Of a stretch of 64,000 nucleotides of DNA, positions 6,404 through 63,879 are shown piece after piece. Location of the stretch: assembly GCA_977018835.1 (NCBI GenBank), contig OZ361256.1:3472001-3536000 (forward strand). Reading direction: 5' to 3'. Every line of letters begins with the position of its first letter. Position 1 is the first letter of the stretch. Below the pieces are notes generated by a model. It worked only from the letters and a program-made list of their open reading frames with translations. It searched no databases and was not told the DNA's origin. A program made the translations under genes and the position numbers. The DNA is from Minutocellus sp. GHC0000111. Its lineage: Eukaryota.

Positions 6404-8720
6404 ATGCAGCAGCATCGCAAGATACATGTACATGTGAGGCGAAAGCGTCAACGGCAAACACGGCATTTGTCTTCAGCTGTCGTAATAGGGCTAATCGGTC
6501 TGGTAGAAGGGGCTGAACTTGGCATATCTCGTTCCCGTCAGTCTGCTTTCCCGCTGTCGATGTCAGCAGTCTCTGGAGAAAGCAATCTCACCCATGAGCA
6601 CAATACAAAAACACATGAGCCTGCCGACAACGTATCTGTGCGGCGAAATCATCATGAGTCTAGTGGGTATGCCGTTCCGGAGAGAAGAAATGGCGGTGAT
6701 GTGAGTGCGGCAATAAGGGCAGATCAGGGCTCGTCGACACTACAGGCGCCCATGAATGTCGTTGACGCAAATAATGGTCATGCAGGCAGACATTCACGCG
6801 CTGATATGTACTCTTTCCACGCTGACGGGGTCAAATTTAGCAGTGGAAATAAGGACGATATGAGGGTTACTTGGGGTTCGTTTAGCCTGCAAAGATATAA
6901 TGAGGAAGGGGGTGAAGTTGATGTGTCTCGCCGGGTTCGTGTAACAGATACAAATAACATGCAGCATGAGGAGGTTGTACTGTCATCGCAGGGAAATGAG
7001 AGTGACGAATTATTGAAAAATACCAACCTAGAGAAACTCCATGCGCAGAAGCTGAGACATCGCAATCGATCGCGACGACATGGACAGCTTTATGGTGAAG
7101 CTGTGGAAAAGGCCGACATGAACGCAGTGAACGCAATGAAAATTCTTGATGTCGCGATTATTGATGACGAAGTAATAGAACAGAATGGTGTTGATCGATA
7201 TCGGCTTCGGGGTCGACATCATGACAGCGACACAACCGATGCCATAGGGGATTTCACGGGGGAACATACAATATCATTATCACAACATGACAAAGGTCGC
7301 AATCGATTCCGAAAGCACAGGCACTCGGCAATTGGTGTATCTGACAAGGCATCAAACTTGCAGTCAGGTGATTTGGATTTGTTGCACCAAGTGAGGAACA
7401 AAGGCGGTATCAATAATATGGAGAGACTGCACACATTCAAGTTTGGATATTTTGATAGATCAAGCAGTAAGACAAAGTCGAGCAAGAGCGAGTCCAGGAT
7501 CGGGGGAAAGAGTACAAAATCGTCCAGCGAGACCGATCTGAACGACGACATTGGGCGCAATAGAGAGCGACGGCACAAGACAAAGCGTAGCAAAGATGCA
7601 TCTACAACCAAATCATCAAAAGGGCTGTTGCAGTCGATATCTCGAGATGACCTCTACGACCCGTGTCTGCCTTACAATTCAGCTCAAATGAGGTTTCGAA
7701 GGCATAAAAATTCCAAGGGAAACAATGCAAACGATTGTTCTGAAAGTAGCAAGTCATCTAAGAAATCTCGATCATCAACGCCGCTGCCTGTACCTTCCAT
7801 TACTCCAGCCCCATCAGTTGATGTACCTTCGAGAAAAGATACTCCTGTGCCAACGATAGTTACAGAGCTGCCAACAGTTTCGTCGATGCCGTCTCAATCC
7901 CCATAAGAGGTAGAGAGTGAGGTACCTTCGACATCACCATCGAGTATCCCAAGTCTTCCTCCCTCTGATTTGCCTTCCGCTTCACCGTCGGGAAATCCGA
8001 GTCAGATTCCAAGCAAATTCCCTTCAACAATGCCTTCTGCGCATCCTTCAGCTTCACCATCTTTGAGCTCAAAGCCAACGATGAAATATCAGCCGAGTAC
8101 TTCTCCCTCGATAAGTGTTCAACCAAGCGCAGTTCCATCGACATTACCATCGGTGACACCGAGCGATGAGCCTTCTAGCATTCCCAGCAGATCTCCCTCA
8201 GCGATGCCTTCATCAAAGCCAAGCTCAAGGCCATCTTTGGCCCCTTCTGAAAGCTTTGAACCAACAATGAAATATCAACCGAGTAGCTCGCCATCATTGA
8301 GCGGCGAGCCAAGCAAAATCCCGTCGCTGCAGCCGAGTATTAATCCAAGTAGCCTGCCGAGTGCCATGCCCTCGAGTAGACCTTCTTTGGAGCCTTCGTC
8401 GTCGCCCTCAGGTTTCCCGAGCAAGAGCTCGGCCCCTTCGAAAAGGTGAGGAGTCCGACCGTCCCATTTCGCTCGCGTGTGATGTTTGTAAACATTGCGA
8501 TTTCTTTCTCGATCTCACATTGTTTTTCTTCGACAGCTCAATGCCATCGACCTCGCCTTCAGATACGATGTCTCCTACCGCTAGCAGTTCTCCTTCTCAG
8601 CTACCGAGCGCGGCTCCTACTCTTTCGCCTTCGTCCGGTCCTAGCACAGATCGATTGCACCGAGCCGCCCTCCCACTACAAAACCTGTGTGATATGAAAC
8701 GTGTATCCAGATCTAGCTAG
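6404..8720 (+). pseudogene. Secreted Lys/Ser-rich and PSxxPS-repeat (mucin-like) cell-surface protein with internal stop
   Basis: N-terminal hydrophobic segment (AVVIGLIGLVEG), KSSK-type motifs, long PSSxPS tract. In-frame TAA 7904-7906, after which the same frame continues (EVESEVPSTSPS...). Intron 8446..8536. Confidence 0.75.
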
Positions 8721-8955
8721 CAAAGAAAATGAGTTTTTGTTCATGTATTTAGATTGATCTTAATAAAAAATTATTGATCTAGGAATTCCTACATGCAATG
8801 TAGACTACTAGAGCATGTCGGTTGGCACAATGCACACTCATGTGCACTCATGATAAATATGGGATCTACCGACCAGTCGACCGGCAGATCTACGTAGACT
8901 CTAGCTACTAGACTAGATCTACATGTGTAAAATCCAATAAACGTTTACGTAGACT
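8700..8955. repeat. Intergenic nested-palindrome patch
   Basis: TAGGAATTCCTA 8780-8791, TCTACGTAGA 8889-8898, TAGATCTA 8914-8921, many CTAG/GATC words. Confidence 0.75.
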
Positions 8956-9373
8956 TTTACTTACACATGTGTAAAGGAACGGGTGGTGGTCGCGTTTTTA
9001 TCGAATTGTTATCTTGAAGAGATGCGTGTGCCGCACCGGTAGGAGCAAGAAGTTTGAGCCAATTCACGTGTCTGCATGTACATATGTAGACCCGTGTACC
9101 ATGATACCAATAGTACCGAGTAACAATACATATATCCGATCCGTTGCTGGTTGTTTGATGTTTCGAAGGCTTGTTGCTGCCTTTCGTTGCTCTCTTGCGC
9201 TTTGCGAAATACAAATAAATGTGCCGCATTTTGTTGGCGGGCGTCAGATTTACATCACCGAAATTTTCTAAGCAGCACAACATCGCTGACTCGACGAACG
9301 CGCCGCCGCAACCATCCAAAAAGTGCGGCTGGCCACTCCAAACCTGCCAATACAGGAAGGAAGGAGGCGCAAC

Positions 9374-11921
9374 ATGCCCAACGGTATCCCTTCCAAACGC
9401 TGTGGTAGGCGTACTTTATTGCCTGCCATTGCTTTTAACCTCGTAGCGGCGATTCTTCCCGGCGCATTTGCTCTGGTCACTCCAAAATTTCCTGCACATG
9501 TCTCTCGCTTTCGATCTGTCGCCGTTGCACCATGTCAACGGCATCATCAAAGATATTGTCGACGGGATACGGCACTTCTAAACGTGGGCTCGCCTGTTGT
9601 AAATGGCGATACCGCATCAGTCACTGCTACCGGCGATGCTCTTTATGATGAATCAGCCATTCACGGTGATGACTTCCAACCCGAGACCCAAACAATTGTG
9701 GCTTCCATTGCCTTCTTTGCGCGCTACTTGGTCCGCACAGTTCAACAAGAGCGGCTTACCTCGCGCCTTACGAATCGCAACAAGCGTCGTCTCCTCACCA
9801 AGCTTCGCAATTCTCTCCGTAGGAAGGGATGGACCGCAGATGCGGATGCCCGACGGAGGGAAGATGAGGCAACACTTGCCAGGCTCAAGGCCGAGTTGGG
9901 ATTCAAGGATAATGAAAAGGAATTGCTCGACGGGGAGAAAAAGGGGTTGAGGGAAACCCTGGCCGGTCTCAACGAATCTCGCAAATCCCTCATCAAACTT
10001 GTGGGATACGACTCGTCCCTTTTGGTACCTTCCTTTGGCTTTTTGCTCCTAGGTGCGTTGATGACGTCCATCATCCCACACTACTACTACTCGCAGTGTG
10101 TTACTTGCCTGGCAGCAGCTGAAAGCACCTCAAGGGAGACCGTGGTCAAGTCATTGTTTGGTTTGGCTGTCGTCAATGTTTTGGCGGCTCTCTTTACAGG
10201 TATGCGAGGGGCTCTCTTCTGGATTGCTGGCTCGCGTGGTAACTACAACGTCCGCGTGAAGCTGCATCGCAACTTATTGCTTCAGGAAGGAAGCGGCCTT
10301 TTTCGATTCTACCGAGACCGGCACCCTCCTCTCGCGTCTCAACAACGATGTCAATAAGATCGGTATGGTAATCAGCTTCCAGATAAATGTTCTGCTGCGA
10401 CAATTTGCTCAATTTGTCTTTGGTGCCGTCTATCTCGTGAAGATTAGCCGCAGTTTGAGCCTTTATGCATTCGGTGGAATTGGCCTTGTTGCCATTGTTT
10501 CAGCTCTCTACGGTCGCTTCGCTCGCGGTCTTGCTGAAAGGGTACAGGATACCTTTGCTCGAGCATCAGCAGTTGCTGAAACTTCCTTCAGCATGAGCGA
10601 GACAGTGCGGGCCTTTGATGGAGTACCCTGTGGGGTTGCCAAGTGAGTTTCTGAATTGTTTGCTTCGAATATAACAGATGTATTTCCTCGTATGGTGTCT
10701 CTCACACATTCGCGCCGCGCTTGCTTCTTGGATTTTCCGATCCATAGGTACGAAGATGCTCAGGGGCGGGCTCTTGAACTTGAGGAGGTTCAGGCTTGGG
10801 CGTATGGGTCTCATAAATTCGTGTCAGACACCATAGAAGCTCTGCTTCAGTGTGGTCTTCTTTTTGCATGCTGGAAGGCCGGCCGAGCGGGAGGATTGCC
10901 TGTAGCGAAGCTCACAAGCTTCATGTTCTATGTGAATTTTGTTTTAGAATCGAGTAATGAGGTAGGCGACCAATGGGCCAAGATACAATCAGCAATCGGC
11001 GCTTCGTCTAATGTGTTTGACCTTATTCGGCGCGTTCCTGCGATACGTGATCCCGTCGAAAAGGTTGCCGTGAAGGAAACACCATCATCGTCTATGTCTG
11101 ATCGTCCTGTTATCAGCACGGAAAACATGTCCGTCACGTATGGTCAGATGGAAGCCCCTGCTCTCTCTAGAATAAATCTGGACATTCAGCCGGGAGATAG
11201 AGTTGCCATTGTCGGCCGTTCAGGCTCGGGCAAGAGTTCTCTGCTAAGGACTGCACTTCGCTTCTATGACCCCTCCTCAGGATCAATAAGCTTTGATGGA
11301 ATCAATATGAAAGACATGTCCCGTAAGGAGATTGCAAAGAAAATTTCTGTGGTTGAGCAGGAGCCTCATTTATTTCCAATGAGCTTGATGGACAATGTAT
11401 TGTATGGCATCGAGAAGGACTCCATCGATCAGGAAACTGGTGAGACCTGCTACGGCGCTGATTGGCGAGAAGCGGTAGCAAATGCTCTGGAGATTGCTGG
11501 ACTGCCAGTGACAGGTGACGCGAAGAATGATTTAGGACTAGATCTTGACAGCATGGTTGGGGAGGGATATCGAAGTCTCTCTGGTGGTCAGCGACAGAGA
11601 GTTGCTATAGCTCGCGCCCTCATCCGCCAACCATCACTGCTGCTGCTTGATGAACCTACCGCAGCGCTGGACTCCAAGTCAGAAAAGATTGTAGTTGAGG
11701 CTCTTCTCAACGCCCTGAAAAAGACCAAGAGCATGCTCATGGTGACTCATCGGTTAGGTGTCATCCGATCTCTTGGCGTAAACAAAGTTATTGTTCTTGA
11801 GCGTGGAGAGGTCGCCGAGATGGGCCATCCAGAGGATTTATTGCGAACTGGAGGCATTTATTCTCAGTTGGCCCAAGAACAAGGCATCACCGCTCTTGAA
11901 GAAAACGAGGTTGCTCGGTGA
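9374..11921 (+). pseudogene. ABC transporter subfamily B half-transporter (TAP/MDL-like), probably plastid-targeted, frameshifted
   Basis: TM domain plus NBD with GRSGSGKS, LSGGQRQR and LLLLDEPT. A 4-bp duplication (GGAAGGAAG at ~10285-10293) breaks the conserved QEAAFFD..TGTLLSRL motif. Intron 10643..10747. Confidence 0.9.
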
Positions 11922-16433: not shown

Positions 16434-19400
16434 TCAACCACGACGAAATGCATCCGTCAGTTTCCTCCACAGACTATCGGTCGTCCACCAACTTGAACTT
16501 TCCCTGTCGTCCTCACAGGCCTCCATGCAGTTCAATACATAGCGGAATTTACACGCCTTTGTTGCATCGCCCTTGTTGCCGCCGGCAGCGCATGCATCTG
16601 GAATGGTCAGAGCAGATTCGTCCGTTTGGTAGAAAATACCCGTTGCAGTCTCGTCTACCGCATAGATATCTATGAGAGCAAGACCTTCTGTGCACTTTGC
16701 TGTAAAGGCGTTGACGATACCACAATCAGGCCTGGAGGTTTTGAAGCACTCCAATTCGCCATTCTCGGGAACAACGAAATCAGCAGCGATCCAATCCATC
16801 TTGTTGTTGGTAGAAGAGCCGTAGTTGCACTCCTTCCACACCTGTGACAGAGTGAAGGTGACAGTCTTGCCGCTGCGTGATATTATATCAAGAGGAAGCT
16901 TTTCTGAAGGATTGCACTGATCTGCGCTTAACCTCCGAACATTTGCAATCGGGACGCCCATCCTGCAAGAAGGAATGTCGTCGTCCTTGGGCGTGTCGAC
17001 TTCTTCGGTCGCCGCCTTTGTTTCGGATGATTTGGAGGACCGTGGCTGTGTCAATTGGACTTTGGAGTTGTGCTTCTTGTAAGATGAAAACAATTCTTCC
17101 ATCCTACGCTCCATCAATCTGCGGGTGCTTGGGCAAATGGGTGCCCCACCATCGGCGCCAAAGACAGCGGGATTATCCCAATTATTTGATACAGAATCCG
17201 AATCGCGAATGCACATATAGTCTTGGTCTGCCACGGACGTTCCGTTTCCATAGTAAGCGGTTCCGTTGCCCACAATATTTCCACCGTCGGGGACGGGAGA
17301 AGAAGGATCGCCGTCGAGGCAGTTGAAATCAGCACAGCAAATATTCTGGGAACCAGTGCCTCCACATCCTGCAGAGCCACAAACATTCTTGCATGTGTTG
17401 CCGTTGCAACTGACCTGGCCATTATCGGCAATACAGCTATTATTTCGAAGGTCGTCGGCGAGGCCTGGGCAGTCATATAGGCCCTCTGCAATGAAAACAA
17501 AGAAAGGAACATGGATGGGTGAGTTCATGAATCAATACATTCAAACTTTCATGTGTGCATGTGAGCATGTGACCATCACAAAAGGAAGAATGAAGAGGAA
17601 ATAAAGTACCAACTTTCCCATTGCTAACTCACTTAGTCTCTGACCGAACATGCAAAAAGTCGCTGGAACATCTGTGCCTTGACTGTTGAAATCCGAAAGA
17701 CAGTCGCCGCAATTGACGCTGCAGGTGCTGGTAGCTTTGACTCCAATTTGGGTCCTAACACAGCCACTTGTAGCGGGACAGCACTTGGCACGATTGTCAG
17801 TTTTTCCAGTGACAACGGCATAAGCTTCGTCGCACAAGGTCTTCTTGTCCGCAGTACAAACGCCTGAATCGACGCACGTCCCATTTGTATTAGCGCCAAC
17901 AATGATGCAGTCTGTATCGACAGGACAGGTCGTATTCGTTGTGGTACAAGTCTGACAATTACTTTCGTTGTTTTCGTCGACATTATTGCATTCAGCGTCA
18001 ACTTTGTTGTAATCCGATGCATCGGGGTCTGTTTCGTTGTATGTGGTGCAGGCCCTTCCACAATCGCAAGCAAATGAACACCCAACATCATTGCTTGCGC
18101 TTTGGCCAGTGCCTGCGTCGTTTCTCACTAAACAACCCTGGCACTTGCATCTACAATTACCTGAATTATCACGATCATCAAAATTACAAATTCCTCCACC
18201 ACAGTGCGAATCGCTGTAATAGAATACCAGAAACAAAAGAGCATATCATGTAGGTGAGTATTGTGAAATGAAAGTTGAGAAGTGTTTGAGAGACAACAAT
18301 TTATTACGGCTTTGTAATGATGTAAAATTTGATTCATTCCTTCCACACGAAATCATATCTCCACTGTTGTCCACTTTGTAACCGGAGATCGAGGGTTGCA
18401 TGCTTGGGGCGCTACTTGGGTACAGGCTCGGTCCAGCGGAAGGTGATAACGAGGGCATGTCACTGGGTTGGCTAGAAGGGAGCAGCGATGGTGAAGCAGA
18501 AGGCGATGACGACGGATCGCGCGTCTTTGGGGTAGGATTGCCACTTGGCGAAGAAGACGGTCTTTGACTTGGCTCGGCGGATGGCACAAAACTAGGCGAT
18601 GACGACGGAGATGAGCTCGGCTCTTTCGAAGGATGTGAGCTTGGTACCTGGCTAGGATCACTGGACGGTAAAAGACTAGGTTCGTCAGATGGCACAACAG
18701 ATGGCGACGAGGTAGGCTCGCTCGACGGGTCAGAGCTTGGTGACAGGGATGGATTGGAGCTCGGATCGTCAGAGGGAGAGCTGCTGGGAACATTCGATGG
18801 CATGGAACTGGGTACCGTTGTAGCATCACCGATGCGAAGAAATTGAGGGTCCTCGTAATAACCAGAACTTTCACAAGTTCCGTTGAGTGGAGGGCAGGAC
18901 CGTGGCTTACTGTACATCACATCGAATCTGTAATCAGGACAACTAGGGAGACCGGATGAACCGCAGGGATAGATGGCGACTTGGCGAGTGAAAATCTCCT
19001 GCTTCACAGTCCCATCTGCTATGGTGACATTCTCGACAACATCAGTAGTATCCAAAGTAAAATACGACGGATCCAGGGCAAACCCTGGAGCAGAAAATTT
19101 CTCATGAATTTCGAGGGTGTGGTCGACATCATCATCATTGTGAATGTAGTACACAAAGTGAAATTCAAGGACGACAAAATCACCAGCGAGGATTTCATTT
19201 TCGTATAACTTTCCAACCTCAACGCAAAATCTTTCAGATGAGAGCCCAGTTGTTGCATTCGTATATGTGAAAGAACAATTGACACCGGCAATATAAGGGC
19301 AAATTTCTCCACAAGAAGGAGAATTACTTGGGGAGGAAGAAGGGTATGAAGACGGATCACTGCTCGGCTCCGACGACGGCATACTCGACGGTGAGCTACT

Positions 19401-22400
19401 AGGCTCAAGAGACGGTACGTCAGTTGGCTGTCCCGTCGGTGGCTTCGAAGGCATCGACGATGGAGATGAGCTAGGCTCACTGCTTGGATCAGACGACGGC
19501 GACGAGCTAGGCATACTCGACGGTGACGAGCTGGGCTCACTGCTTGGCTCCGACGATGGATCCGAAGACGGATCACTGCTCGGCTCCGACGACGGCGTAC
19601 TCGACGGTGAGCTACTAGGCTCAAGAGACGGTACGTCAGTTGGCTGTCCCGTCGGTGGCTTCGAAGGCATCGACGATGGAGATGAGCTAGGCTCACTGCT
19701 TGGATCAGACGACGGCGACAAGCTAGGCATACTCGACGGTGACGAGCTGGGCTCACTGCTTGGCTCCGACGATGGATCCGAAGACGGATCACTGCTCGGC
19801 TCCGACGACGGCGTACTCGACGGTGAGCTACTAGGCTCAAGAGACGGTACGTCAGTTGGCTGTCCCGTCGGTTGCTTCGAAGGCATCGACGATGGAGATG
19901 AGCTAGGCTCACTACTTGGATCAGACGACGGCGACAAGCTAGGCATACTTGATGGGTCAGAGCTCGGTACGGACGAAGGAGCAGGCGTCGGACCTCGAGT
20001 TGGAGGGCTCGTAGGATCTGATGAAGGGTTTGTGCTCGGCCTTGAAGACGGTACAAATGAAGGTCTATCGCTCGGCCCATTCGTCGTGTCTAGATCTGGT
20101 GGCGGATAAATAAATTGTGGAGGGTCAAGATCACCAACAACCACAATCGTCACCGTAGCCTCATCCCTACCGCCTTTGCCATCCGAGATGGTGTAAGTAG
20201 CCGTCTCGACGAACGTCTCACCGTCCCTCAGCCCGTCGGCATACTCCGAAGCGGAATAGGTCATGCCACCGGTCTCAGGATTGACCGTCATCTCGCCACC
20301 TGACGGGAAAGACACCGAAAACGTCGAGGATGGATTGCTGATCGGGCCAGTGCCATCGCCCTTATCAAAACCAACGATGGTGAGCTTGTCCGTCTCCGGA
20401 TCACTGTCGTTGGGAGCAATAATGTTGGACGAAACGGAGGGATTGTCCGCAGTGACGCGATACGAATCATCCTCCGCCACGGGAGGATCGTTCTCACCCG
20501 TGATCTCGATGCAAACCTCTGCCGATGCGGATGCTCCGACGACATCGCACACCAAGTACGTGAAGCATACTTCGGCGGTCTCGCCCACACCCAGACTCTC
20601 AAAGTCGCCGTTCGAGGTCGAGAAAGTGTAGCAGCCATCGCTGTTGATGGAAAGCGTGCCGCCCTCCGGCATCTGTCGAGGACCACCACCGACCGGAATC
20701 AAAGCACCGGAGGAGTCTACCACTCCGCCATCACAAAACGTGAGGCTATCACCCTCATCTGGATCCGAATCATTCTCGCTGCGCGCAAGGGAAAGCAATT
20801 ATTGCAAGTCGAAATCAAGCATGACAGAGATTGAATGTGAGAACAAAGAAACAAAATATATGCATCAGGAGGGTACCGGACCTCGATACGTCGACCATGG
20901 GCGGCTAGCACAATGCATGAATACATAAAGACATACATACATACAACGAGAAGACAACACGAGAAAAGGCGAAGTTGTAACTCACAAGACACAGTCCGAG
21001 ACATCATTGCCCTCCGGCACAGTCTCGCTGTCATCCTCGGGGACAGGTGGATCATTCTGGCCAACGACGGTGAAGGTGACCGTCGCAATGTCCGTTCCGC
21101 CGTCCTCATCGGTAATAACATACGTAAGGATGTCAGTGATCTCTGACCCTGGTCCCAGAGCTTCAACCTTATCACGATCGGGAGTGTACACAATTCCACC
21201 CGAAACAGGATTGATCCTGATTACACCATTTGTCAGATCGTAGTCTATGCCAATTGCAGGCTGTACCGGCGTGTTTGTTCCACCATTTGGAGTGATGGAT
21301 GTGATGGTGAGGTCTCCCAATTCACCATCAGGATCGCTGTCGTTCTCCAGGATTTGACCAATAATAGTGCCGCCACCAGCTTCGAGCTGATCGACCGTCC
21401 GGGCGTAGGAGTTGTCCTCGGCAATCGGAGGGACATTGGTAGGCTTTGGGGTAGGCGCGGAACTTGGTTTGCTTGATGGGCTATCGATCGGTGAATCGGT
21501 AGGTGGTGGGGGCGGTGTTTGAGGGTTGACAAATTGAGGAGGGCTAGCAACGATCGTTACAGTCGTTGTCGCGGGTTGGCCGGCAGCGTCGACAATTTCA
21601 TAGTCAAAGACTTGTTCGTATGTATCCCCAGCTGGAATATCATTGATAAAGGCGCTGGTATCGAAAGTCATCTCTCCTGTTGCAGTATTGATAGTGACGA
21701 CAGCCTCCTTGCCTTTACCGTATGGTGTCATGAAGGTTGTGGTGATAATATCGTTCCCACTTTCGTCCGGCTGGGGGAACACCGCCACAGGATCCTCGCC
21801 AGGCATTCCAGGCTTTGTGATCTTCGTGACCGTGAGATCATCTCCATCTGGATCAGTATCATTTTCAAGAACAATGTTTGCATTGATAATGCTGTTGACC
21901 TTGGTGGCAGTGTTGTCAGGGTTGGCAACGGGCGGACTATTGCCCCCCTCGATAGTAATTGTCACGGTCGCCATGGCAGTCTGACCCATTGTATCGACAA
22001 TCTGATAAGTGAATGTCTCTACGAACGTCTCTCCAGCTGGGATGCTGGCAACCACATCACTGGCATCATAATCCATCTCGCCAGTCAGAGGATTTATCGT
22101 GACAACACCACCGCTGGGGAATGTAGCAGAAATAGTCCCCCCAGAAGGGGCGATATCAGTCATTTCTCGATTCGGCCCACCGGGGATAGTTATCTTGGTA
22201 ATGCTAATAACGTCACCGACGTCAATATCGAAATCATTGTCCAAGATATTATCCGAAACGGTGGGATTCGTAATGGTGGCCGTGTAGTCATCATCGATAG
22301 CTACGGGGGGATTCGGGCCAGGAGTAGGAGGAGCAGGAGGCGCGAAATCCGGATCCTCTGGTTCCTTGCACCGATTGGGCAACTTATCCACCAACGTGTC

Positions 22401-44457: not shown

Positions 44458-45063
44458 TTTATCGATGAGATCGATTCCGTCTTTCGGAAACGAACGACGG
44501 CTCAAGATTCGGGGGAAGCAACTCGAAGTTCAGTTGTGAATCAAATCCTAGCCAAGCTAGATGGAGTCAATGCAATCCCGAATGTGCTTCTTATTGGGAT
44601 GACCAATCGACGAGAATTACTTGACGATGCTTTGCTAAGACCTGGCAGATTAGAAGTACTAATTGAAATCCCTAAGCCAGACAAGCAAGGGAGGCGAGAG
44701 ATATTGAAGATCCATTTCAGGCCTTTACGCCAAAGTGGTAGACTATCGCAGCCTCTCATTCAGGCCATCGACGGCGCAAATGATCCTTCTGATATTGATA
44801 GCCCTACTAGTATCACTTAAGGGAGCAAAAGGAAGGCAATAAGGAGACTGATCCATAAGAGTCCTATGTTTCAGAGACATAACAAATATTATCTCGCCGC
44901 CGACTATGCAACGGGGGGATTCACGGGGGCAGATATCGCTGGTTTGGTTCGCTGTGCAGGCTCTATCGCCCTTGCCCGGTCAAGAGAGCAGGGTGATGGT
45001 ATTGATAGCTTGGTGATTACACTTGAGGATGTGAAACAGGCTTTGGCCGAGGTGAAAGCTTAA
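44458..45063 (+). pseudogene. NSF-like AAA+ ATPase fragment, 5'-truncated, with in-frame stop
   Basis: Starts abruptly at Walker B (FIDEIDSV); [38 protein letters not shown]; no Walker A upstream; TAA 44818-44820 in frame. Confidence 0.85.
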
Positions 45064-48037: not shown

Positions 48038-48166
48038 CGATGGAGAAGAAAATATGAGCGAGCATGGCCGATTTGCCGGTTGGTAGCATTTCTGTGTCGA
48101 AATTGTTACGTCATCCCACTTTCCGGAGGCTCAACGCCTCCGCTCTGTCATAATTTACTGCCAACC

Positions 48167-50538: not shown

Positions 50539-50675
50539 AATCGCTCCTTACCTTTTTGATTTATCCAGGCCATAAGCTTAAATCGTTTTTGTTCATAGAA
50601 ATGGGCTACAGACCCTAACGCATGATAGTCACTGAGGGACAGACATACCACTGGTTGATGTTGTGATTGCTAATG

Positions 50676-51895
50676 TTACTCGTTATGTATTTCTTCGTCG
50701 ACCCGACCATGTCGAGCAGCGTCACGTCGCTGTGCAGCTTTTGGGGGGTCCCACTTACTTTTGGCCCACCGCAAAGAATAGGATTCCTTGTTGTACCTGA
50801 TCCAACAAATATAGTGATATAATGCGTATGCCTCCTCGGCGGCATCTTCCTCGGCCTTCTTTGCTCTCTCCTCCTCGTCGGAAAGCAGACCGGCCACACT
50901 CAACTCGAGTCCGGCAACAACATTCTCAATGGTCGGGCTGGACCCAGAAATAATGACGGCGGCCACGGACTTGGCCGCACCGTCCTCCTCGATCTCCTCG
51001 ATGGCATATCCGGCAAAGTCCTCCGCACCGGCACCCTCGTACACGTACGCGGTGATGGCCTGGCTGGTCGGGTCGCGCGCCTCGGGGCACGCTCGAGGTA
51101 GGCCAGAAGGCTCGGCGCGAGCTTGGCCGAGTTGCTAATGACGCGGACGCCGATGCGAGTTCCGGGGACGTGTCCCTCGGGGCAGTAGAGGCTGTCGGAC
51201 ATGCTGAGAGAGTCCTTGGTACTCTGCGCGACGTCGTCAAAGGTGTCGAAGGACAGGTCCTTGGAGCCGGCCTCGGGCATCAGGCCTCGGGCGGTGGCGG
51301 CATTCACCTTGAGGGGGTTGGACTTAGGCTGGTCCAGGCCGGCCAGTTTGAGGTCCAGGGGCTTGGTGATGCGGAAGGCCGACTTCTTCAGCGGGGTAAC
51401 ACCATCCGCGTTAAGGGCCCAGTTGAACTCGTAGTTCTGACCAGGATATTCATTCGGGACGCTGACCGACTTGCCTACTCGCTTGACGCTATCCGGAAGG
51501 CCGGCTGATGAACGAAACGAACACAACACAAGAAACAGAAAAGAGCCCAGATCAGATTTGAGCAGCGCCAATCCACCAAGCCAACCAGATACCAACCACA
51601 GGTACATCGCCGGGGCGAGAGAATTGAGGGAGTGGGAATCTAAAAGTGAGAACATAATCTCTTTCAACTGGCGTCGTCGGCATGTTGCCAATAACCCGAT
51701 AAAACAAAGCACGTAGTAGAAGCCGCCGACCCCCCGCCGAGCTGGATGCTCATACCACAAACAAAGGCTTGCTCACTGCTACTCACCGAAATACCGCACA
51801 GCCTGCGTAGAAGCAGCGGCCGGCGCCGCCGACCGTGCCGAGAGGGTCACCGCCGCGCGGCGGACCAGGAGCGTCGCTTGTCTGCTGGCCGACAT
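50676..51895 (-). pseudogene. Mitochondrion-targeted hypothetical protein (weak resemblance to PEP-carboxykinase N-terminal fold), frameshifted
   Basis: Arg/Ala/Ser-rich presequence exon 51895..51787, intron 51786..51505. An extra dinucleotide in a (GC)n run at ~51074-51080 shifts ERAPRR|DPTSQAITAYVYEG. Confidence 0.65.
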
Positions 51896-54208: not shown

Positions 54209-55416
54209 ATGTACGTATCTTCAAATGGCGCCACGGATCAAAACATATTCATCTCACCAATGATTCCATGCTAACTTGTCCTTTTGATCCTTTGCTCTAT
54301 CTCAATCGACAGGGCTTTCATCTTCAACAAGCGCAACAAGAACAAGAAGGGATCCGGAGGAAAGAAGAAGTTCAAATGGGGCAAGAAGAAGACCAAGGGC
54401 AGCAACAAGTTCGCCAGCACCGAGCTCCCTGTGATTGAAGAGGAGGAACAGAAGCGATGGCACTGTTGACGATGCCACCGAGAAGAGGGTAAGTCGTTGT
54501 AGGCGGCGGCGGCAGCCAGTACACGTATTCTCGATGATTGCTGGTGACTGAATTACTACATAGGGATCCAATATCTACCATGCTGGAATACCACACAACA
54601 CACATATCCTAACTCTCTCACCTGTGGCATCTCCCTCATCATCTTCACTCCTCTATTGTATAGGACGATGTGCTTGACTTTGGAGACATCTCTCGTGCGT
54701 CTACTGACGGTAACGGTGACGATTTCATTCTCAATTCGTACAACACCGATGGCACTATCGACGGATCGCAGCTCAAGAGCGACGCCGAGGTCCCCGTTGT
54801 CGAGAGCACCTCTTTCTCTCAGCAACTTGCTGTGGCCGCCGCTGATGCCGCCAACATGTTCCAGCGCATGTCGTCTACTATGAGTGTTGCTACTGCTCCT
54901 GTCCCTATCCAGAGCGAAAAGAAGCAGGGTAATGAAGAAGAGAAGAAGGATGACGCTGTTAGTGACCATCTTGTGGAAGGAAATGCTGGTGAAGCCGGCA
55001 TTAAGGCCATTGGAGAAAACAACGAGGACGAGAGCGAGGAGGATACTATCAAAAAGGATGATGATGCCAGTAAGGATGGTCGTGGGCTTATTGTTGCATG
55101 GCCCAGCATGGAGGAGAAAAATCAAGGTGGCGAGAACGCCAAGGACTCTACTTCAGCTAAGGACGTTGTCTCCAACGACGAGGACATTACTAATGGCAAG
55201 GATGACGAGTATTTCCAGTCTGGCGGCGACGCCACCAAGAATGCCGATGTCATCGTGGAGGACACTGACTCCCCTCCCGCTGCCAACACGTTGGCCTATA
55301 GTATTGGACAGACTGAGGTGGAGGATGAAGAGGATGGGTCGCCCTTCAACGTATGCACCGACTTGTTCCGCTTTTTGAGAAAGAGAGAATTCAATTTAGT
55401 TGCTTTTAAAAGATGA
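54209..55416 (+). pseudogene. Hypothetical protein, Lys-rich N-terminus and acidic low-complexity body; frameshift in exon 2
   Basis: AT|G split by intron 54211..54312; second intron 54489..54663. A frame change at ~54452 is needed to reach the GTAAGT donor, otherwise TGA 54467. Confidence 0.6.
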
Positions 55417-55457
55417 AATCGAAACAAAAGATACACACGCGTTGTACGATACTTTAC

Positions 55458-58400
55458 TTAGTAGAAAGTGATGATAATAAAAGTAAGTTGATGCTGGCAA
55501 TAAGTATTGGTCTTCACGCCGCCCAAGGCAGGCATATTCTTGCGCTTTACCCCACCAGATAGCTGCGGGAGATCCTTTTCTTGGCTCGCGCTACTGACGT
55601 CGGTAGCTGGTGGTAGTGTCGGGGTAGAAATATCGACATCGTCCCCATTAGCACTGGAACCACCTCTGTGCGTAGGCGCCAAGCATTGCCGCTGTATGCA
55701 TATGCAGCGCTGGAAGCTTCCAGTGGAACGAGCATTGGTAGCTTCTGAAGGACGCTCAAGGCAGGAGCGACAACGACCGCAGTCTTTGGTCTGTGTGCAA
55801 CCAAGGCAGGATCCACAGGGAAGCCATCGGGGCTTACTCCCCCTGCCTCTCCCGGTACTATTACCACTCTGGCGGCGGCTTTGGCGCTTCTTTTTTTCGC
55901 AGGACGTTCGTCCGATGATATATCAGGTGGAAGATTATGGTCAGTAGAATCATTTGCGTCATTATTGACCCAAACCTGTGAGTAGTCCTCATCGCTGTCA
56001 TCGTCATTATCCCCAGCACTGCTTGATTTCGAGGAACGGCGAGAAAGCTTCAGCTGCTTACGTTTCCTTCGGGCTTGGTCGCGCTTACGTTGGATGTCGC
56101 TCAATCCCTTCTTCGTTGATATTTTTTTTACGGAGGTTTTAGCCTTCTTCTTAGCCTTGGTCTTTGGTTGGTCATCACTTTCAGTATCTTCGTCATCGCT
56201 GCTACCCGATGGCTGTTTTCGTTTCTTCTGACCAGACTTTGTTGAAGAAGAGCGCTTCTTGGCATCAATACCGCTGGCGGTGCTGGCATCGGCAGCAGTT
56301 GCTTTCGTTGGAGCGTCAGAAGCGACATTATCACTCTCTTTCTTCTTTTTGCCATTCGTAGATCCTCGAGCCTTCTTTTTCTTGATAGCCTTGCCATTGC
56401 TAGAAGAAGGCTTGGCTGTGACGGAAGCATCTGAGTCATCGGCCTCCTCGATTGCAGATGATAAAGAAGAGGCATTTTCTGAGAGTTCATCAAGACGATT
56501 TGTGAGTCTCTTCTCCTCGCCTTCAAGATTCTTCAGCTCCAGTTGTTTCCAAGTAATTTTCTTGGTACGAGATAAGGCTGATTCGGGCTTCTCTCCTCCC
56601 TTTTTGGCAGCTGCAGCTCTGCCATGATCTTGCAGAGATGTTATTTCTTCCTTGAGACGGCGAATTCGTAGGACAATAGTCTGCCTCTCGCCCTTCAGCC
56701 TTGTCCTTTCGAATTGCTTAAACTCTTCTTCCACAGTCAATGCGATGCTATCCATAGGAGTCGAATTGTTATTGTCCTTGTTTTTCCCCTTTTTCTTCTT
56801 CTTGCTGGCAGTGGCAGTAGCAGCAGCACCTTTCATTTTCTTAGCGGCCGATCTCTCAGTCGTAGTCGCCACGTGAGCGTTGTCGCTAGTAGTCGAATCC
56901 TCGACAACTTGTCCATCCAACACTGCGAGCAACTTCTTGCTGGGGAGATTCGCAGGAGACGATAAGATTGATTCTTGATCTTTTGGAGTCTTTGGACGAG
57001 GAGGGCTCTTGGTTTGTTTCTGCTTTTGCTTGGACTTGGCACTGCGGGACTTGCTTGGTAATGGAGCTGACGCCAAGGCCGATGCCGGTGCCGTACTCTG
57101 CCCGAGAAAAGCAAGAGAATCCATCACATCGTAAGAAGCCGGAGTGACTGGCCGGACAGAAGACAAATTAGGGGTTGAGGAGGATACCGATGTTCTCGTA
57201 CCAGAGCCCTTTGATCTACTTGCTTTGGGAACACGCTTTAGCTTTGATCTTTTCTTCGTCTCGTCCTTCTTTGGCTTACTGCTGATACTGGAACTGTTTT
57301 TGTCTTGACAGCTCTTGCAATACCAATTGCCATCAGGAACAGCATTGAGCTTATCGTGCGTGCAGGATAGGTGACAGGCCTTATCACAGCTATCACCATC
57401 ACACAGGAGCATCTCAGGACCGTCAGGACTCTCAATCTCGAGGCAAACGTAACAGTAGTCAAGCTTTGGCTCCCCATCCTTGTACTTGTAAAGTTGTAGC
57501 ACCTTCTCAACGTCACGTTTCTCTGGAATTCGGAGGATTGTACCCTGCTGTAGCTTTGATTTGGCATTCAATCTCTTGTATCGTTTGCGATTGACAGAAA
57601 TGAGATCATTGCACTCGCAACCTCGCTTTTCGGAGCAATCGAATGGCGTTTCATCATTCAGCGTAGTGTAAAATTGTGCATCTCTGCATACATGACCGGG
57701 ATGAAACGTCTCCTTTTCTTCCAGCCCCCCGTCAGATTTCTTGGGTATGGTACTAGTACTGGTACTGGTTGCAGAGACGGGCGTTTTGGTGGCAGCCAAT
57801 TGCGTTGCGGCCCGAAGGATATCATCTCGACTCGAAATTGGTGGATCCGAAGGCTTCGACGCTTCATTTGTTGCGTCCGACTTCTTGCCTTCTTTCGATC
57901 TGCCACCCTTATTTGCACTCTTACTAGACTTCTGAGCTCCGTCATCACCAGCAGAAGCGCCAGAATGATCGCCTGCACTCTCACTTGTACCGCCATCAAT
58001 CTTCCCACCGACCTCCGAGGACGCAGCCTTTTTGGAATCGCCCTTCTTGGCGTTGGCCTTCTTCGTACCGCCCTTCTTGGTGCCGGCGCCGGCATCATCG
58101 CCCGCCTTCACACTGATCTCCGACGAATCAACTATTTTCGCTCCGGCCTTTTTGCCATTGGACTTCTTCTTGGCGTCACCATTCTTAGTGGCGGCGCCTG
58201 CATCATCTGTCTTCGTTCCAGTAGAATGTACGACATGAACTCTCATATCCTTCGCGTCCATCTCCTCCTCATCACCATCGGAATATCGGATCTTGTAGAA
58301 TTTAGAACCCTGGTCATACGAAACAAACTTCTCCTCGATAGGCTGATATGTTATTGGTAGCATTTGGGTAGAAGATTATTGTTGTGGTTGGGTGAGAAAT

Positions 58401-59766
58401 TAAAGATCGGCTCTGAACGAGTGTAAAACATGGGCATAGATTTGGAAAAATGCAATGTACTCGCTCTGAATGCACTTACCGACTCCATCAAAATCTTTGG
58501 ATATTTCAGTTCCAATTAGATAAAGATCACTTGTCTCTTGATTCTTCTTGGGCCCATCCTTTGCGGCAGCAGCCTCATCTCCTTTCCCACGGTCAGTCGA
58601 TTTTGCTGTCACCGCATCCTCCTGAGCAGCAGCAGCAGTAGCGCCTCTAGTCTTCCCCTCGGGCTTTGCTGCTGCAACATCCTTGGACCCTATTGCAGAC
58701 TCGTCGGCACTTGTCTTTTTACCAGCGGTGGTCACATCAGTAGTCACTGCTGCTGCTGTAATAGAAACGGCAATGCTACTATCGGCATCGGAAGAACAAT
58801 CCAGTGGGTCCAGGAAACGCTCAATTTCGGCTTCCTCCAGCTCCTCCTCGTCACCATCCTCCACATATCGGACCTTGTAATACCGAGCCTTGGCATCGTA
58901 CGAAATAATATCACCTCGATACGCTAATCAGCAATTTGTTTGGATGGAATTTTCAACGAATGATGGATAATTAAGTAAAGTTCCAACGAAATCTTACGAT
59001 GCATGATTCATTCCATAGCATTGCAATTTAACTCAGGACATGTCAAGCATTCTATCCACTTACCAACTCCATCAAAATCTTTGGATATGACAGTACCGAC
59101 CCGGTACTTTTGTCCCTTTGCCCTCCCAGGTGAAGGCTGCACTTGGACTTGATCCTTCGTCTTGGTCTGTGCCTGGGTCTGTGCTTGTGCTCGAGCGGCC
59201 CGACGCTTCGTCAATGACAGTCTGCTGGTCCTGCCGACAGTTGCACCGGTGTTGGCACTTGCTTTCTGCGTTTTGCCACCGTTCGAATCGCCACGTGCCT
59301 TTGCTGATTTATCACTGATAGCACTACCCGCCGTATCCGACTGAGCCTCCGATGAGCGTGATGTCGCACCGCCCGTAGCTTCTGCCTCAGCGGCACCATC
59401 TGCTTTGGCCGTTGAACCCCCAGTCGATTTTTCAGTACCCACATCGGCATTGTAGAAGGTGGTCCTAGTTCGCTTCCTCGTATTGGCCGATCTCCGACCT
59501 GGTGGGTCTGCTCCTGACTTTGAGGCTTGTCTCTGCTCCTCTGCCATCGCTACCATGGTGTTGCTCTTGCTCTTGGCCTGTGCTCCATCACCGGTAGCGG
59601 CGGCCGATCGTGTTGCTGCTGATGCCGCCGTCCGAGGCGATGTGCGACGAGTGCTACCGCTCATGCCAGCAGAACCGATAGGATCAGTAGCAACGTTACC
59701 AGCTGCTGGGGGAAATGATGCGGCAGCTGTGGCGGCAGGGGCTTTTCTGGAACGACGCGACCTCAT
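55458..59766 (-). pseudogene. Chromatin protein with two Tudor-like domains, a LysM-like domain and a PHD finger; frameshifted
   Basis: 2x GTxISKDFDGV.YRG...YD....YK.RY.DGDEEE; YTTLNDETP..DLISVN..KLQQGTILRIP; C4HC3 PHD. Introns 59063..58924 and 58479..58343. +1 base at ~58325-58330; probable second shift at ~55684. Confidence 0.8.
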
Positions 59767-59824
59767 TGCCACGGTATCGATACACGAAAAACTGCTATGT
59801 GCGATGTGGTGGATGCTTTGTCAC

Positions 59825-62735: not shown

Positions 62736-62927
62736 CCAATACTGCGTACGGTACTAGTACGATTATATAGTATCATGCTAGATCGACCAGACTAATTTGT
62801 TACTTTTCTTCTGAGCGCAACTTAGCTAGCCTACTGGAAAAGAGATGATGTCCAAGCTTTCTTTCATTGCAACTTGATCTGATCTTAAATCGGATGGCTC
62901 GTGTTACATGTATTATCTCAAGCAAAT

Positions 62928-63879
62928 CTATCCACCACGGACGGGGCGGACGTACGCATTGATGTCCAGAGGCGCCCAGCAATGGGTATTGTCAGCATAA
63001 AGCTGGATGCGATAGGCGTTGCCATCATCCCACTGCTTGATGACGACGCCCCGCTCCCACTGGCCGATGTTGGCCTCGACAGTGCTGCCGACCGCAAAGC
63101 GGAGCTCATCGGTGACTTTACAGGCCTCAAAGCCCTCCTTCAGAAAGGCAACATCGAGGTTCTTGCCAATGAAGACGAATCGGCTCCCACGCTTTTCATC
63201 AGGAATCGGCTCCCACGCTTTTCATCAGGCTTCCACGCGCCCTGGAAATTTCCGGAGAACATCATTCCAACGCCTTGGAAGACAAACTTCTCGTCTTTGC
63301 CCTTGACAGCGATGACACCCTTGTAGCGGTAGAGGTTGGCACCGTCCTCCATGATGAGACGCTGAATCCAGCGCTCCACCATGGAGATATTGACCTCTCC
63401 TTCAAACTTGGAGGACGTGGACACGATTGACTTATCGTGCTCATGCTCGGCATCAGGATCGTCGAGGAACTCTGGCTCGAACTCCAAGACGCGCTTGAGA
63501 TCGAAGGCACCAATGTTGAGAAGATCCTTGGGAGAGATCTTGCCATGCTGGGCACGAAGAATGGGTGCCGTGGGAGTGAGCTTACGAAGGCGATCCTCGA
63601 TGTTCTTGAGCTCGGCTTCATCCTTGACGATGTCCGTCTTGTTGAGGATGATCTATGGTGGGAGCGGAGCAAATTTAATAGGATGTATTTGTCAGAAGGA
63701 TATTTGGTGCGTACATCTGAATGGTACATTTTGATATACATGTACATTCGAGATTTGTAACATGTAGTACATGGTGGGTGTTCTGGACACGAAAAAATAT
63801 TATCAAACATCTCAGAATACATGTATAATAACTTACCCTATCGGCAAAGACAACCTGCTCGACGGCCTCGTTCTCCACC
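62928..63879 (-). pseudogene. COG0523/CobW-family metal-chaperone GTPase, 3' part; frameshifted by a 26-bp duplication (5' end beyond window)
   Basis: ENEAVEQVVFADR|IILNKTD, HEHD, LYRYKGVIAVKG, FVFQGV, SRFVFIGKNLD; intron 63836..63653; stop TAG 62930-62928. Confidence 0.9.
63177..63228. repeat. Perfect 26-bp tandem duplication inside the CobW-family gene
   Basis: GAATCGGCTCCCACGCTTTTCATCAG at 63177-63202 and 63203-63228. Confidence 0.95.

What the first reader, a model, noticed from the sequence alone, without database searches (positions are those of the whole stretch)
6404..63879. Region-wide gene decay: about 15 of 27 genes are broken, including housekeeping genes
Seen directly. In-frame stops: 7904 TAA, 23202 TAG, 41212 TAG, 44818 TAA, 47581 TGA. 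Frameshifts: 10286 (+4), 38670 (-77), ~41310, ~44045, ~50243, ~51075 (+2), ~54452, ~58327, 63177 (+26). Lost splice sites: 18339 and 34069. Also a 5' truncation (44458), a 1.77-kb duplication and a scrambled kinase. Genes that look intact are mostly short (ACP, COQ4, gamma-CA, HAD, carrier), as expected if lesions accumulate neutrally with length. Motifs and introns are otherwise well preserved, so the decay is recent. Inference: this is a redundant, non-selected copy of a normal chromosome segment, such as a decaying homeolog after polyploidy or hybridisation, a sheltered haplotype in a clonal diploid, or a non-recombining mating-type-like region. Substitution stops, multi-base duplications and rearrangements are not the homopolymer-indel signature of plain long-read error.
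Basis: partly seen in the sequence, partly recalled or inferred. Interest (0 to 1): 0.85.

Follow-up and report, generated by a model that had tools for sequence, protein, structure and literature searches.

The report
Diatom haplotype riddled with broken genes
This stretch of a diatom chromosome carries stop codons, frameshifts, lost splice sites and duplications in about half of its genes; public reads show that most of these defects are real and that intact partner copies occur in the same samples, so it is likely one of two redundant genome copies that both decay in a lineage that does not reshuffle its chromosomes.

Summary
The ~54452 frameshift is unverifiable and the "scrambled kinase" is one sub-threshold Pfam hit. 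I count 12-13 broken genes of about 26.

Most lesions are not assembly errors. Of 13 items that Logan contigs of four public runs could judge, 9 lesion alleles recur in at least one run, 7 of them in runs from other studies. Three are window-only: the 1,693-bp tandem duplication, its 77-bp deletion and a 5-bp insertion. Related diatoms have the intact state at 47581, 50243, 51074, 63177 and a full-length AAA gene where the window has a remnant.

An intact allele, about 99.5% identical, was found for 10 of those 13 items. Every run carries window-type alleles at some sites and partner-type at others. X3, X6 and X7 show both alleles at similar depth.

The partner copy is broken too: -1 at 21773, -8 at 24355, a stop at 42479 and -1 at 43556. 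Five stops match a neutral expectation of 2.6-5.3.

Best reading: two redundant copies, most likely the haplotypes of a clonal diploid diatom, both decaying. One-sided decay is not supported. Genome-wide extent is untested.

The parts
6404..8449 (+). Pro/Ser/Thr-rich secreted-type gene with an in-frame TAA at 7904-7906. 510 open codons lie before it and 180 after, in the same frame.
   Evidence: PT repeat (Pfam) continues after the stop. The X1 contig 6400-9127 has 0 other letters, so the TAA is in X1. No RNA cover.
9323..11921 (+). ABC half-transporter with a 4-bp tandem duplication (GAAG twice) at 10286-10293 that shifts the frame. The intron 10643-10747 is normal.
   Evidence: The X1 contig keeps the 4 bp: 3,618 against 3,621 nt, explained by the 3-nt gap at 10080. 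The X6 RNA piece is 7 nt shorter, 3 of them at 10080; the other 4 lie in a hidden row and are inferred to be the duplication.
16437..24599 (-). Giant cadherin/Big_9, Pro-Ser-rich gene. In-frame TAG at 23202-23204. The donor at 18338-18339 reads GA instead of GT. On the partner allele: -1 at 21773 and -8 at 24355.
   Evidence: At 18338, T>A restores GT in X1 (73.3/73.3) and X3 (11.8/11.8). RNA contigs of X6 and X7 carry the window allele and run unspliced over 17633-18784. Introns 17485>17633 and 20778>20986 are spliced.
33407..34801 (-). argC (N-acetyl-gamma-glutamyl-phosphate reductase type). The acceptor of the second intron reads TG instead of AG at 34069-34070.
   Evidence: DNA contigs of X1 and X3 are like the window. 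RNA contigs of X6 and X7 join 34196 to 34063 with 11 other letters, which gives an in-frame exon start from another allele. Those letters are nowhere in the window.
35220..42626 (+). Large HA-domain/PHD gene. Tandem duplication 37084-38776 and 38777-40546. 77 bp missing at 38669|38670. TAG at 41212-41214. 25 bp missing at 41309-41311. The partner allele has a stop at 42479.
   Evidence: X1 and X3 contigs are single-copy and hold the 77 bp. 41212 T>G in X1, X3 (10.4/14.4) and X6; X7 keeps T. +3 and +22 letters in X3 restore the frame. 42479 C>A (Tyr to stop) in X1, X3 and X7.
42787..44116 (-). Syntaxin (SNARE) gene. A 5-bp insertion at 44043-44047 makes a 10-bp palindrome and shifts the frame in exon 1.
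   Evidence: The 5 letters are left out in X1 (98.6/98.6), X6 and X7. The intron 43645>44014 is spliced. X3 has its own -1 at 43556.
44459..45063 (+). Remnant of an AAA ATPase gene. It starts at the Walker B region and has no Walker A. In-frame TAA at 44818-44820.
   Evidence: The relative L001 has a 703-aa intact gene at the syntenic place, and its similarity to the window starts at 44461. 44818 T>G in X1 and X7; X3 keeps T. Contigs end or start at 44458/44459.
47356..48130 (-). SnoaL-like gene with an in-frame TGA at 47581-47583.
   Evidence: L001 has a Cys codon at this place and an open 211-aa frame. The rows for this place were not shown.
48150..50538 (+). Sec1/Munc18-family gene. One base is missing at 50243/50244, so the last ~95 conserved residues are out of frame.
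   Evidence: The X1 DNA contig and the X7 RNA contig are identical to the window here. The intact allele is P0121 (99% identical) and 9 more of the 15 listed proteins of its cluster. The window-type C-terminus is found only as the truncated 89-aa P0217.
50655..51895 (-). Conserved gene of unknown family. 2 extra bases in a CG run at 51074-51075.
   Evidence: The 2 letters are left out in RNA of X6 (11.2/11.2) and X7 (23.7/23.7) and present in DNA of X1 and X3. The relatives L002 and L009 lack the 2 bases.
54209..55416 (+). Lys-rich gene with a possible frame change near 54452.
   Evidence: only. No homologue, no reads laid. Inconclusive.
55461..59772 (-). Tudor/PHD/CXXC gene. One extra base near 58327 in the second Tudor domain. 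The CXXC domain sits in another frame from about 55900.
   Evidence: The +1 follows from comparison with the first Tudor domain of the same gene.
62931..63900 (-). CobW/G3E GTPase gene. A 26-bp unit is present twice (63177-63202 and 63203-63228) inside CobW_C.
   Evidence: The four homologues I read (P0135, P0127, P0128, P0134) run through this place without the repeat.

Best explanation
The window is one of two near-identical copies (about 99.2-99.6% alike) of a diatom chromosome segment and really carries stops, frameshifts, lost splice sites, a truncation and duplications in 12-13 of about 26 genes. The two copies are likely the haplotypes of a diploid lineage that propagates clonally, so each loss-of-function mutation would be sheltered by the partner allele and would accumulate almost neutrally on both copies.

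Shown:
- The lesions are in the sequence, and 9 of them recur in independent public contigs.
- Intact alleles for 10 items occur in the same runs or in the protein collection.
- Both alleles occur within single runs.
- The partner copy has lesions of its own.
- Related diatoms have the intact state.

Inferred:
- The two copies sit in one cell as alleles.
- The lineage does not segregate them (clonality).
- Transcripts of broken alleles are partly removed, for example the unspliced or prematurely stopped argC and ABC messages.
- The same holds outside this window.
For: 1. The lesions are real. The lesion allele was seen at 7904 (X1), 10286 (X1), 18338 (X6, X7), 34069 (X1, X3), 41212 (X7, and the minor part of X3), 41310 (X1, X7), 44818 (X3), 50243 (X1, X7) and 51074 (X1, X3). 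That is 9 of 13 items the contigs could judge.

2. An intact partner exists. It was seen at 18338 (X1, X3), 34069 (X6, X7 RNA), 41212 (X1, X3, X6), 41310 (X3), 44043 (X1, X6, X7), 44818 (X1, X7) and 51074 (X6, X7). The intact Sec1 exon is P0121 and relatives.

3. Each of the four runs, from four studies dated 2015-2024, shows window-type alleles at some lesion sites and partner-type alleles at others.

4. Both alleles occur inside one run at similar contig depth.
- 23175: X6 26.1 of 51, X7 9.14 of 16.3.
- 22996: X6 32.8 of 48.6, X7 8.39 of 16.3.
- 34709: X3 14.4 of 27.1.
- 23438: X3 12.6 of 26.6.
- 53962: X1 59.7 of 146.9.

5. The partner copy is broken too: 21773 -1 and 24355 -8 (X1, X3), 42479 Tyr to stop (X1, X3, X7) and 43556 -1 (X3). 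In the rows shown, 6 lesions lie on the window copy and 4 on the partner.

6. The counts are near the neutral expectation. 3.2% of coding substitutions would give stops, which predicts 2.6-5.3 stops per copy for 0.4-0.8% divergence over 41.4 kb of coding sequence. 5 were seen. Coding indels in the shown rows were 6 frame-shifting events and 5 in-frame.

7. Outgroups are intact at 47581, 50243, 51074, 63177 and the AAA gene.

8. There is a precedent for a globally dispersed asexual diatom clone with shared heterozygous positions: PMC6043606 (passages read).
Against: - All runs are Logan contigs, not raw reads. Depths are contig means, minor alleles are dropped and contigs can switch between alleles, so neither a 1:1 balance nor phase is proven.
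- X1 may be the sample the window was assembled from, so its support is not independent. 7904 and 10286 rest on X1 alone.
- Three items (duplication, -77, +5) are in no run.
- X3 has alleles of its own (43556 -1), and the protein cluster of Sec1 exon 2 holds many further variants. More than two haplotypes or several strains therefore exist in public data.
- Nonsynonymous:synonymous is 24:16 among 40 shown coding differences, against 2.74:1 expected. This is about 0.55, so missense changes are not fully neutral (site 34945 was dropped because it lies upstream of the start codon).
- Nothing outside this window was seen, so a regional cause is not excluded.
Confidence: 0.5

Rival explanations
1. 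The two copies are very young duplicates rather than alleles. They would be homeologues after a recent whole-genome or segmental duplication, or a polyploid clone. Duplicate genes would then be lost from either copy at random (fractionation).
For: The same facts fit: two copies at similar depth in every run, lesions on both copies, and lesion counts near neutral. More than two variants are seen at some sites, for example X3's own alleles and the many Sec1 variants.
Against: Divergence of about 0.4-0.8% is at the level of alleles. No third or fourth allele was seen at most sites. No second collinear copy could be searched for, because no genome is held.
Confidence: 0.2
2. The window-type and partner-type alleles are common polymorphisms of a mixed or sexual population, or of co-occurring strains. 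Each run's contigs would then show the majority allele of that sample.
For: Public data hold many related variants. X3 has private alleles. Contigs cannot show that two alleles share a cell.
Against: A dozen loss-of-function alleles at intermediate frequency within 57 kb are not expected under segregation. The same pair of alleles, identical to the window over kilobases, recurs in four studies. Examples are X7 with 1 difference over 16414-18784 and X1 with 0 over 6400-9127. Similar depth of both alleles in X3, X6 and X7 would need equal strain mixtures each time.
Confidence: 0.12
3. The window lies in a special non-recombining block, such as a mating-type-like region or supergene, that decays while the rest of the genome is normal.
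For: Lesions fill nearly the whole window. No boundary of the lesion-rich block was seen. The one long gene left of it (508-3189) is open.
Against: Decay is on both copies, not on one sex-limited copy. No known mating-type gene was found among the Pfam hits. One intact gene is not a boundary.
Confidence: 0.08
4. The lesions are mainly errors of the assembly: consensus errors, or false duplication of haplotypes.
For: The tandem duplication, its -77 and the +5 are seen only in the window. The window also has small private differences from all four runs, at 41570, 45229 and 45410.
Against: 9 lesions recur in short-read contigs of other runs, 7 of them in other studies. The lesion types (26-bp and 4-bp tandem repeats, a 25-bp deletion, stops by substitution, splice-site substitutions) are not homopolymer errors. 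The two repeat copies are both window-type, because X1's partner-type contig differs from copy 2 at 39391, 39824 and 40062. So the duplication is not two stacked haplotypes.
Confidence: 0.05

Closest known systems
Obligately asexual, globally dispersed clone of Thalassiosira pseudonana (PMC6043606; passages read with 'find')
   Same: A diatom lineage in which isolates from distant places share the same heterozygous positions, which is taken as loss of sexual segregation. Here four runs from four studies share the same two alleles.
   Different: In the passages I read, that paper has no matches for 'stop codon' or 'Meselson' and describes no pseudogene load. Here about half of the genes of one copy are broken and the partner copy is hit too. 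My data are contigs of mixed samples, not isolates. This diatom is not that species: named Thalassiosira proteins are about 58% identical in Sec1.
Loss-of-function variant alleles among ten Phaeodactylum tricornutum accessions (bioRxiv 10.1101/176008; passages read)
   Same: Frameshift and stop-gain alleles segregate in a diatom that is mostly propagated clonally.
   Different: That study reports 902 genes with such alleles over all accessions, mostly in large gene families. Here 12-13 of about 26 neighbouring genes on one copy are affected, including argC, Sec1, a syntaxin, CobW and an ABC transporter.
Allelic divergence and sheltered recessive load in asexual or clonally propagated diploids (Meselson-type effect; recalled knowledge, no call)
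   Same: Without segregation each allele can accumulate mutations independently, masked by the other.
   Different: As far as I recall, reported loads are a few percent of genes. A per-copy rate near the neutral expectation at under 1% divergence would be extreme. This comparison was not checked in the literature here.
Gene loss from duplicates after polyploidy (fractionation; recalled knowledge, no call)
   Same: Random, reciprocal pseudogenisation of two redundant copies.
   Different: Homeologues usually differ by several percent. Here the copies differ by about half a percent, and their locus relation is unknown.

Membership tests
Assembly or consensus error | Lesions are absent from independent reads or contigs | tested here: not met
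   9 of 13 judged items recur in public contigs, 7 of them in runs of other studies. 3 of 13 (duplication, -77, +5) are window-only.
Assembly or consensus error | Homopolymer or short-repeat indel signature | tested here: not met
   Lesions include 26-bp and 4-bp tandem repeats, a 25-bp deletion, a 5-bp palindromic insertion, 5 substitution stops and 2 splice substitutions. Only -1 at 50243, +1 at 58327 and +2 at 51074 are of the short-run kind.
Sheltered loss-of-function alleles in a clonal diploid (fixed heterozygosity) | Two alleles present together in a sample at similar abundance | tested here: met
   X6, X7, X3 and X1 each show two contigs at several sites with similar mean depth (23175, 22996, 34709, 23438, 53962). 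This is contig level only.
Sheltered loss-of-function alleles in a clonal diploid (fixed heterozygosity) | The same pair of alleles is shared by independent samples | tested here: met
   All 4 runs (4 studies) carry window-type alleles at some lesion sites and partner-type alleles at others.
Sheltered loss-of-function alleles in a clonal diploid (fixed heterozygosity) | Lesions on both haplotypes, in different places | tested here: met
   The partner copy has -1 at 21773, -8 at 24355, a stop at 42479 and -1 at 43556.
Sheltered loss-of-function alleles in a clonal diploid (fixed heterozygosity) | Both alleles in one cell, and no homozygous segregants among isolates | not testable with these tools
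   Only contigs of mixed samples are served. There are no isolates and no raw reads.
Sheltered loss-of-function alleles in a clonal diploid (fixed heterozygosity) | Genome-wide extent | not testable with these tools
   No genome is held for the window. Earlier notes of this scan are empty.
Decaying homeologue after polyploidy or hybridisation | A second collinear copy at another locus of the same haploid assembly | not testable with these tools
   No genome is held.
Decaying homeologue after polyploidy or hybridisation | Divergence between the copies clearly above allelic level | tested here: not met
   Long X1 and X3 contigs differ from the window by 0-1%. Summed over the listed long X1 pieces this is 95 letters in about 30.5 kb.
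Non-recombining mating-type or sex-linked haplotype | One haplotype degenerate, the partner intact | tested here: not met
   Both copies carry frameshifts or stops.
Non-recombining mating-type or sex-linked haplotype | Defined boundaries and a sex-determining gene | not tested
   No boundary lies within the window. The Pfam scans of ORFs of 60 aa or more gave no candidate, but diatom mating-type genes have no Pfam model that I know of (recalled).
Alternative genetic code or RNA editing | The stops or indels are read through or corrected as a rule | tested here: not met
   All three stop codons occur as lesions, and the partner alleles have sense codons in DNA (41212, 44818). DNA-RNA differences go both ways: RNA carries the broken allele at 18338, 41212 (X7) and 50243, and the intact allele at 34069 and 51074.

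The most novel reading that the evidence does not exclude
A widely dispersed diatom lineage that has stopped segregating its chromosomes, in which both genome copies are being pseudogenised at close to the neutral rate. About half of the genes on a copy are already dead, each covered only by its partner, and some genes (the giant cadherin-like gene) are dead on both. This would be a diploid caught on the way to functional haploidy, and a measurable clock for the age of asexuality in a diatom.
Probability: 0.33. Interest if true: 0.85.

Novelty: new variant of a known kind. Interest (0 to 1): 0.68.

Why it matters
If the pattern holds genome-wide, this would be an unusually clear natural case of what theory predicts for diploids without segregation: recessive loss-of-function mutations piling up, unseen by selection, on both haplotypes.

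It would give:
- a direct estimate of how long the lineage has been clonal;
- a test of how much haplo-insufficiency constrains gene loss;
- a warning for annotation, because a phased or pseudo-haplotype assembly of such an organism looks 'broken' although the organism has a working copy of nearly every gene.

It also shows that lesion-rich eukaryotic contigs in mixed samples need not be low-quality consensus.

Tried and rejected
- Whole genome of the window: not held. I could not search for a second collinear copy or measure lesion density genome-wide.
- Earlier notes of this scan: empty, both by place and by sequence.
- Micro-exon idea for the 11 extra RNA letters at the argC junction: neither the letters nor their reverse complement occur in the window.
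- RNA editing or systematic DNA-RNA difference: rejected, because the direction differs between sites.
- Variant genetic code: rejected, because TAA, TAG and TGA are all involved and the partner alleles have sense codons.
- Short introns hiding the stops or shifts at 7904, 10286, 50243 and 63177: no GT..AG interval of plausible size restores the frame. The X7 RNA contig is collinear with the window over 50095-50569.
- CobW protein search: it returned only relatives of 90% identity or less, and no same-species allele. The 26-bp repeat is therefore unverified in other data.
- Kinase: a Pfam scan of 32 ORFs between 12097 and 15074 at E up to 1 gave only the known sub-threshold hit plus noise.
- JGI metagenome scan: 10 loci, none of the same species. 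The best, L001, is 86% identical in DNA. They were used as outgroups only.
- Places without information in the laid runs: 23202 and 47581 (their rows were among the 142 and 146 not shown), and 7904 in RNA (no cover).
- The break of contigs at 44458/44459, and a loose end in X1 before 44500, hint that the partner copy or a paralogue continues into a full AAA gene. This is not shown.


Full report
**What the window is.** It is nuclear DNA of a diatom.
- Genes have short GT..AG introns.
- Several proteins carry repeated HA (helicase-associated) domains and Pro/Ser-rich repeats.
- The best named relatives of its Sec1 protein are diatom proteins at 55-67% identity.
- No whole genome is held for it.

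A Pfam scan of 505 stop-to-stop ORFs of 60 aa or more, together with RNA-supported introns, gives about 26 genes. Among them are an ABC half-transporter, a gamma-carbonic-anhydrase-type protein, a giant cadherin-like gene, a HAD hydrolase, a mitochondrial carrier and argC. There are also a large HA/PHD gene, a syntaxin, an AAA remnant, ACP, Sec1, COQ4, a Tudor/PHD/CXXC gene, a DEAD-box helicase and CobW.

**Check of the observation.** I read every listed place in three frames.

All five in-frame stops separate two open pieces of one frame.

Eight of nine frameshifts are clear:
- a GAAG-GAAG tandem repeat at 10286, exactly where the ABC_membrane match jumps frame;
- -77 at 38670;
- -25 at 41310, which removes the end of an HA domain;
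- a 5-bp insertion at 44043-44047 that forms a 10-bp palindrome;
- -1 at 50243 in Sec1;
- +2 in a CG run at 51074;
- +1 near 58327, shown by comparison with the gene's own first Tudor domain;
- a 26-bp unit present twice at 63177-63228 in CobW_C.

The ~54452 shift cannot be judged.

Both splice lesions are as described. The donor at 18339 reads GA and the acceptor at 34069 reads TG.

The duplication is 37084-38776 and 38777-40546, identical except for the 77 bp.

The 'scrambled kinase' is only one sub-threshold Pfam hit.

So 17 of 19 items stand, in 12-13 genes of about 26.

**Outgroups.** A scan of JGI metagenome contigs gave 10 loci. None is of the same species.

L001 is 86% identical in DNA and collinear with 44461-50539. 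In L001:
- the AAA gene is a full 703-aa frame with a Walker A motif, while the window keeps only its last third;
- the SnoaL-like gene has a Cys codon where the window has TGA;
- the second Sec1 exon is one open frame with one more base at 50243.

L002 and L009 lack the two extra bases at 51074. Full-length Sec1 homologues and four CobW homologues read through 50243 and 63177.

**Public reads.** One search found 20 runs from 10 studies that hold part of 44000-53999. Ten of them are on record as RNA.

I laid Logan contigs of four runs on 34000-53999 and on 6400-26399:
- X1, labelled as an organism and DNA-like because it covers introns;
- X3, a metagenome (DNA);
- X6 and X7, metatranscriptomes from two further studies.

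The rows for 23202 and 47581 were among those not shown.

Of the other 13 items, the lesion allele recurs at 9:
- 7904 and 10286 in X1;
- 18338 in X6 and X7, whose contigs also retain that intron while splicing the next one;
- 34069 in X1 and X3;
- 41212 in X7 and the minor part of X3;
- the 25-bp deletion in X1 and X7;
- 44818 in X3;
- 50243 in X1 DNA and X7 RNA;
- 51074 in X1 and X3.

Three items are in no run: the duplication, the -77 and the +5. X1 and X3 each have a contig that runs through as a single copy containing the 77 bp.

Contigs end or start at 44458/44459, which is only a hint of a structural difference there.

X1 may be the source sample of the window. Seven of the nine lesions are also seen in runs of other studies.

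**The partner copy.** An intact allele was seen for 10 of the 13 items:
- GT at 18338 (X1, X3);
- an in-frame argC exon start in RNA (X6, X7);
- GAG at 41212 (X1, X3, X6);
- +25 at 41310 (X3), which by hand restores the frame and the G-F-x-W end of the HA domain;
- no +5 (X1, X6, X7);
- GAA at 44818 (X1, X7);
- no +2 (X6, X7);
- single copy of the duplicated segment, with the 77 bp (X1, X3);
- for 10286, an X6 RNA contig that is 4 nt shorter than the shown 3-nt gap explains. This one is inferred.

For Sec1, the protein collection holds an intact exon-2 protein at 99% identity (P0121). Ten of the 15 listed proteins of its cluster start upstream of the site and read through it. The window-type C-terminus occurs only as a truncated 89-aa product.

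Every run shows window-type alleles at some sites and partner-type alleles at others. Within X3, X6, X7 and X1, two contigs of similar depth cover several sites. The listed long X1 pieces differ from the window by 0-1% (95 letters in about 30.5 kb). I take this as roughly 0.4-0.8% between the two copies, because the contigs are mosaics of both.

**Decay is not one-sided.** Where the window is open, the other allele has:
- -1 at 21773 and -8 at 24355 in the cadherin-like gene (X1, X3; the RNA is like the window);
- Tyr to stop at 42479 (X1, X3, X7);
- -1 at 43556 in the syntaxin gene (X3 only).

Among the rows shown, 6 differences repair a window lesion and 4 break the partner. Coding indels were 6 frame-shifting events against 5 in-frame.

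With the observed substitution spectrum, 3.2% of coding changes would make a stop. That predicts 2.6-5.3 stops per copy over 41.4 kb, and 5 are seen.

Of 40 shown coding substitutions, 24 change the protein. This gives a ratio of 1.5 against 2.74 expected, or about 0.55. One site, 34945, lies upstream of the argC start and was dropped.

**Reading.** Errors of assembly cannot explain most lesions. A variant code and RNA editing are excluded, because all three stops are involved and DNA-RNA differences go both ways.

The data fit two redundant, nearly identical copies that are present together in every sample and both lose genes at about the neutral rate. I think these are most likely the haplotypes of a clonally propagating diploid diatom.

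There is a precedent for a globally dispersed asexual diatom clone with shared heterozygous sites (PMC6043606, passages read). In Phaeodactylum, loss-of-function alleles are reported for 902 genes over ten accessions, mostly in large families (bioRxiv 10.1101/176008, passages read). That share is far lower than here.

Other readings remain possible:
- very young duplicates or polyploidy;
- a strain mixture;
- a special non-recombining block.

The contigs cannot show phase, exact allele balance or what happens outside this window.

**Limits.**
- All read evidence is at contig level.
- Many table rows were hidden: 146 and 142 substitution rows, and 22 and 50 indel rows.
- Five lesions could not be checked against runs.
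- The lesion count for the partner copy is a lower bound.
- No supplementary files of the two papers were opened.

Noticed in passing
window 27426-27469: The 716-codon frame 25319-27469 and the 539-codon frame 27426-29045 overlap by 44 nt in different frames, with no GT..AG interval between them. This may be a further frameshift that joins one gene, or two genes 32 nt apart. There is no RNA cover of the 5' part.
   Followed up: partly
window ~55850-55920 (minus strand): The CXXC zinc-finger match (55682-55832) lies in another frame than the long Tudor/PHD frame that overlaps it. The switch would fall near an A7 run.
   Followed up: partly
window 47734-47870 against L001 4677-4688: The SnoaL-like gene has an intron of about 140 nt in the window that the 86%-identical relative lacks. 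This is an intron presence/absence difference between close diatom lineages.
   Followed up: partly
window 44038-44047 (minus strand): The 5-bp insertion in the syntaxin gene is the reverse complement of the 5 bases before it and makes a perfect 10-bp palindrome. It looks like a templated (snap-back) insertion rather than a slippage event.
   Followed up: no
window 44459-46080: One abundant X7 RNA contig (depth 87) covers the AAA remnant, the ACP exon and part of the ACP intron without a break. The remnant may be transcribed as part of the ACP 3' region, antisense to the old AAA frame, or the contig may be unspliced RNA or DNA carry-over.
   Followed up: no
proteins P0122-P0126 and P0206-P0219; loci L001, L002, L009: Public metagenomes hold many lineages 84-97% identical in the Sec1 exon-2 protein. 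In every one whose listed protein starts before the site, the frame is open there. The organism belongs to a diverse complex of related diatoms with no close named reference.
   Followed up: partly
window 53818-53962: X1 holds two forms: a contig (depth 59.7 of 146.9) that skips 127 bp (53818>53946) and lacks one base at 53962, beside the window form. This is a structural heterozygosity upstream of the membrane-protein gene 53065-53817.
   Followed up: no
window 41570, 45229, 45410: All four runs differ from the window here (T>C, +AAG, A>C). These are either private variants of the sequenced copy or small consensus errors. With random allele choice in four mosaic contig sets, some such sites are expected.
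   Followed up: no
window 9078: X1 has 23 extra letters upstream of the ABC gene that the window and X3 lack. This is an indel polymorphism in the intergenic or 5' region.
   Followed up: no
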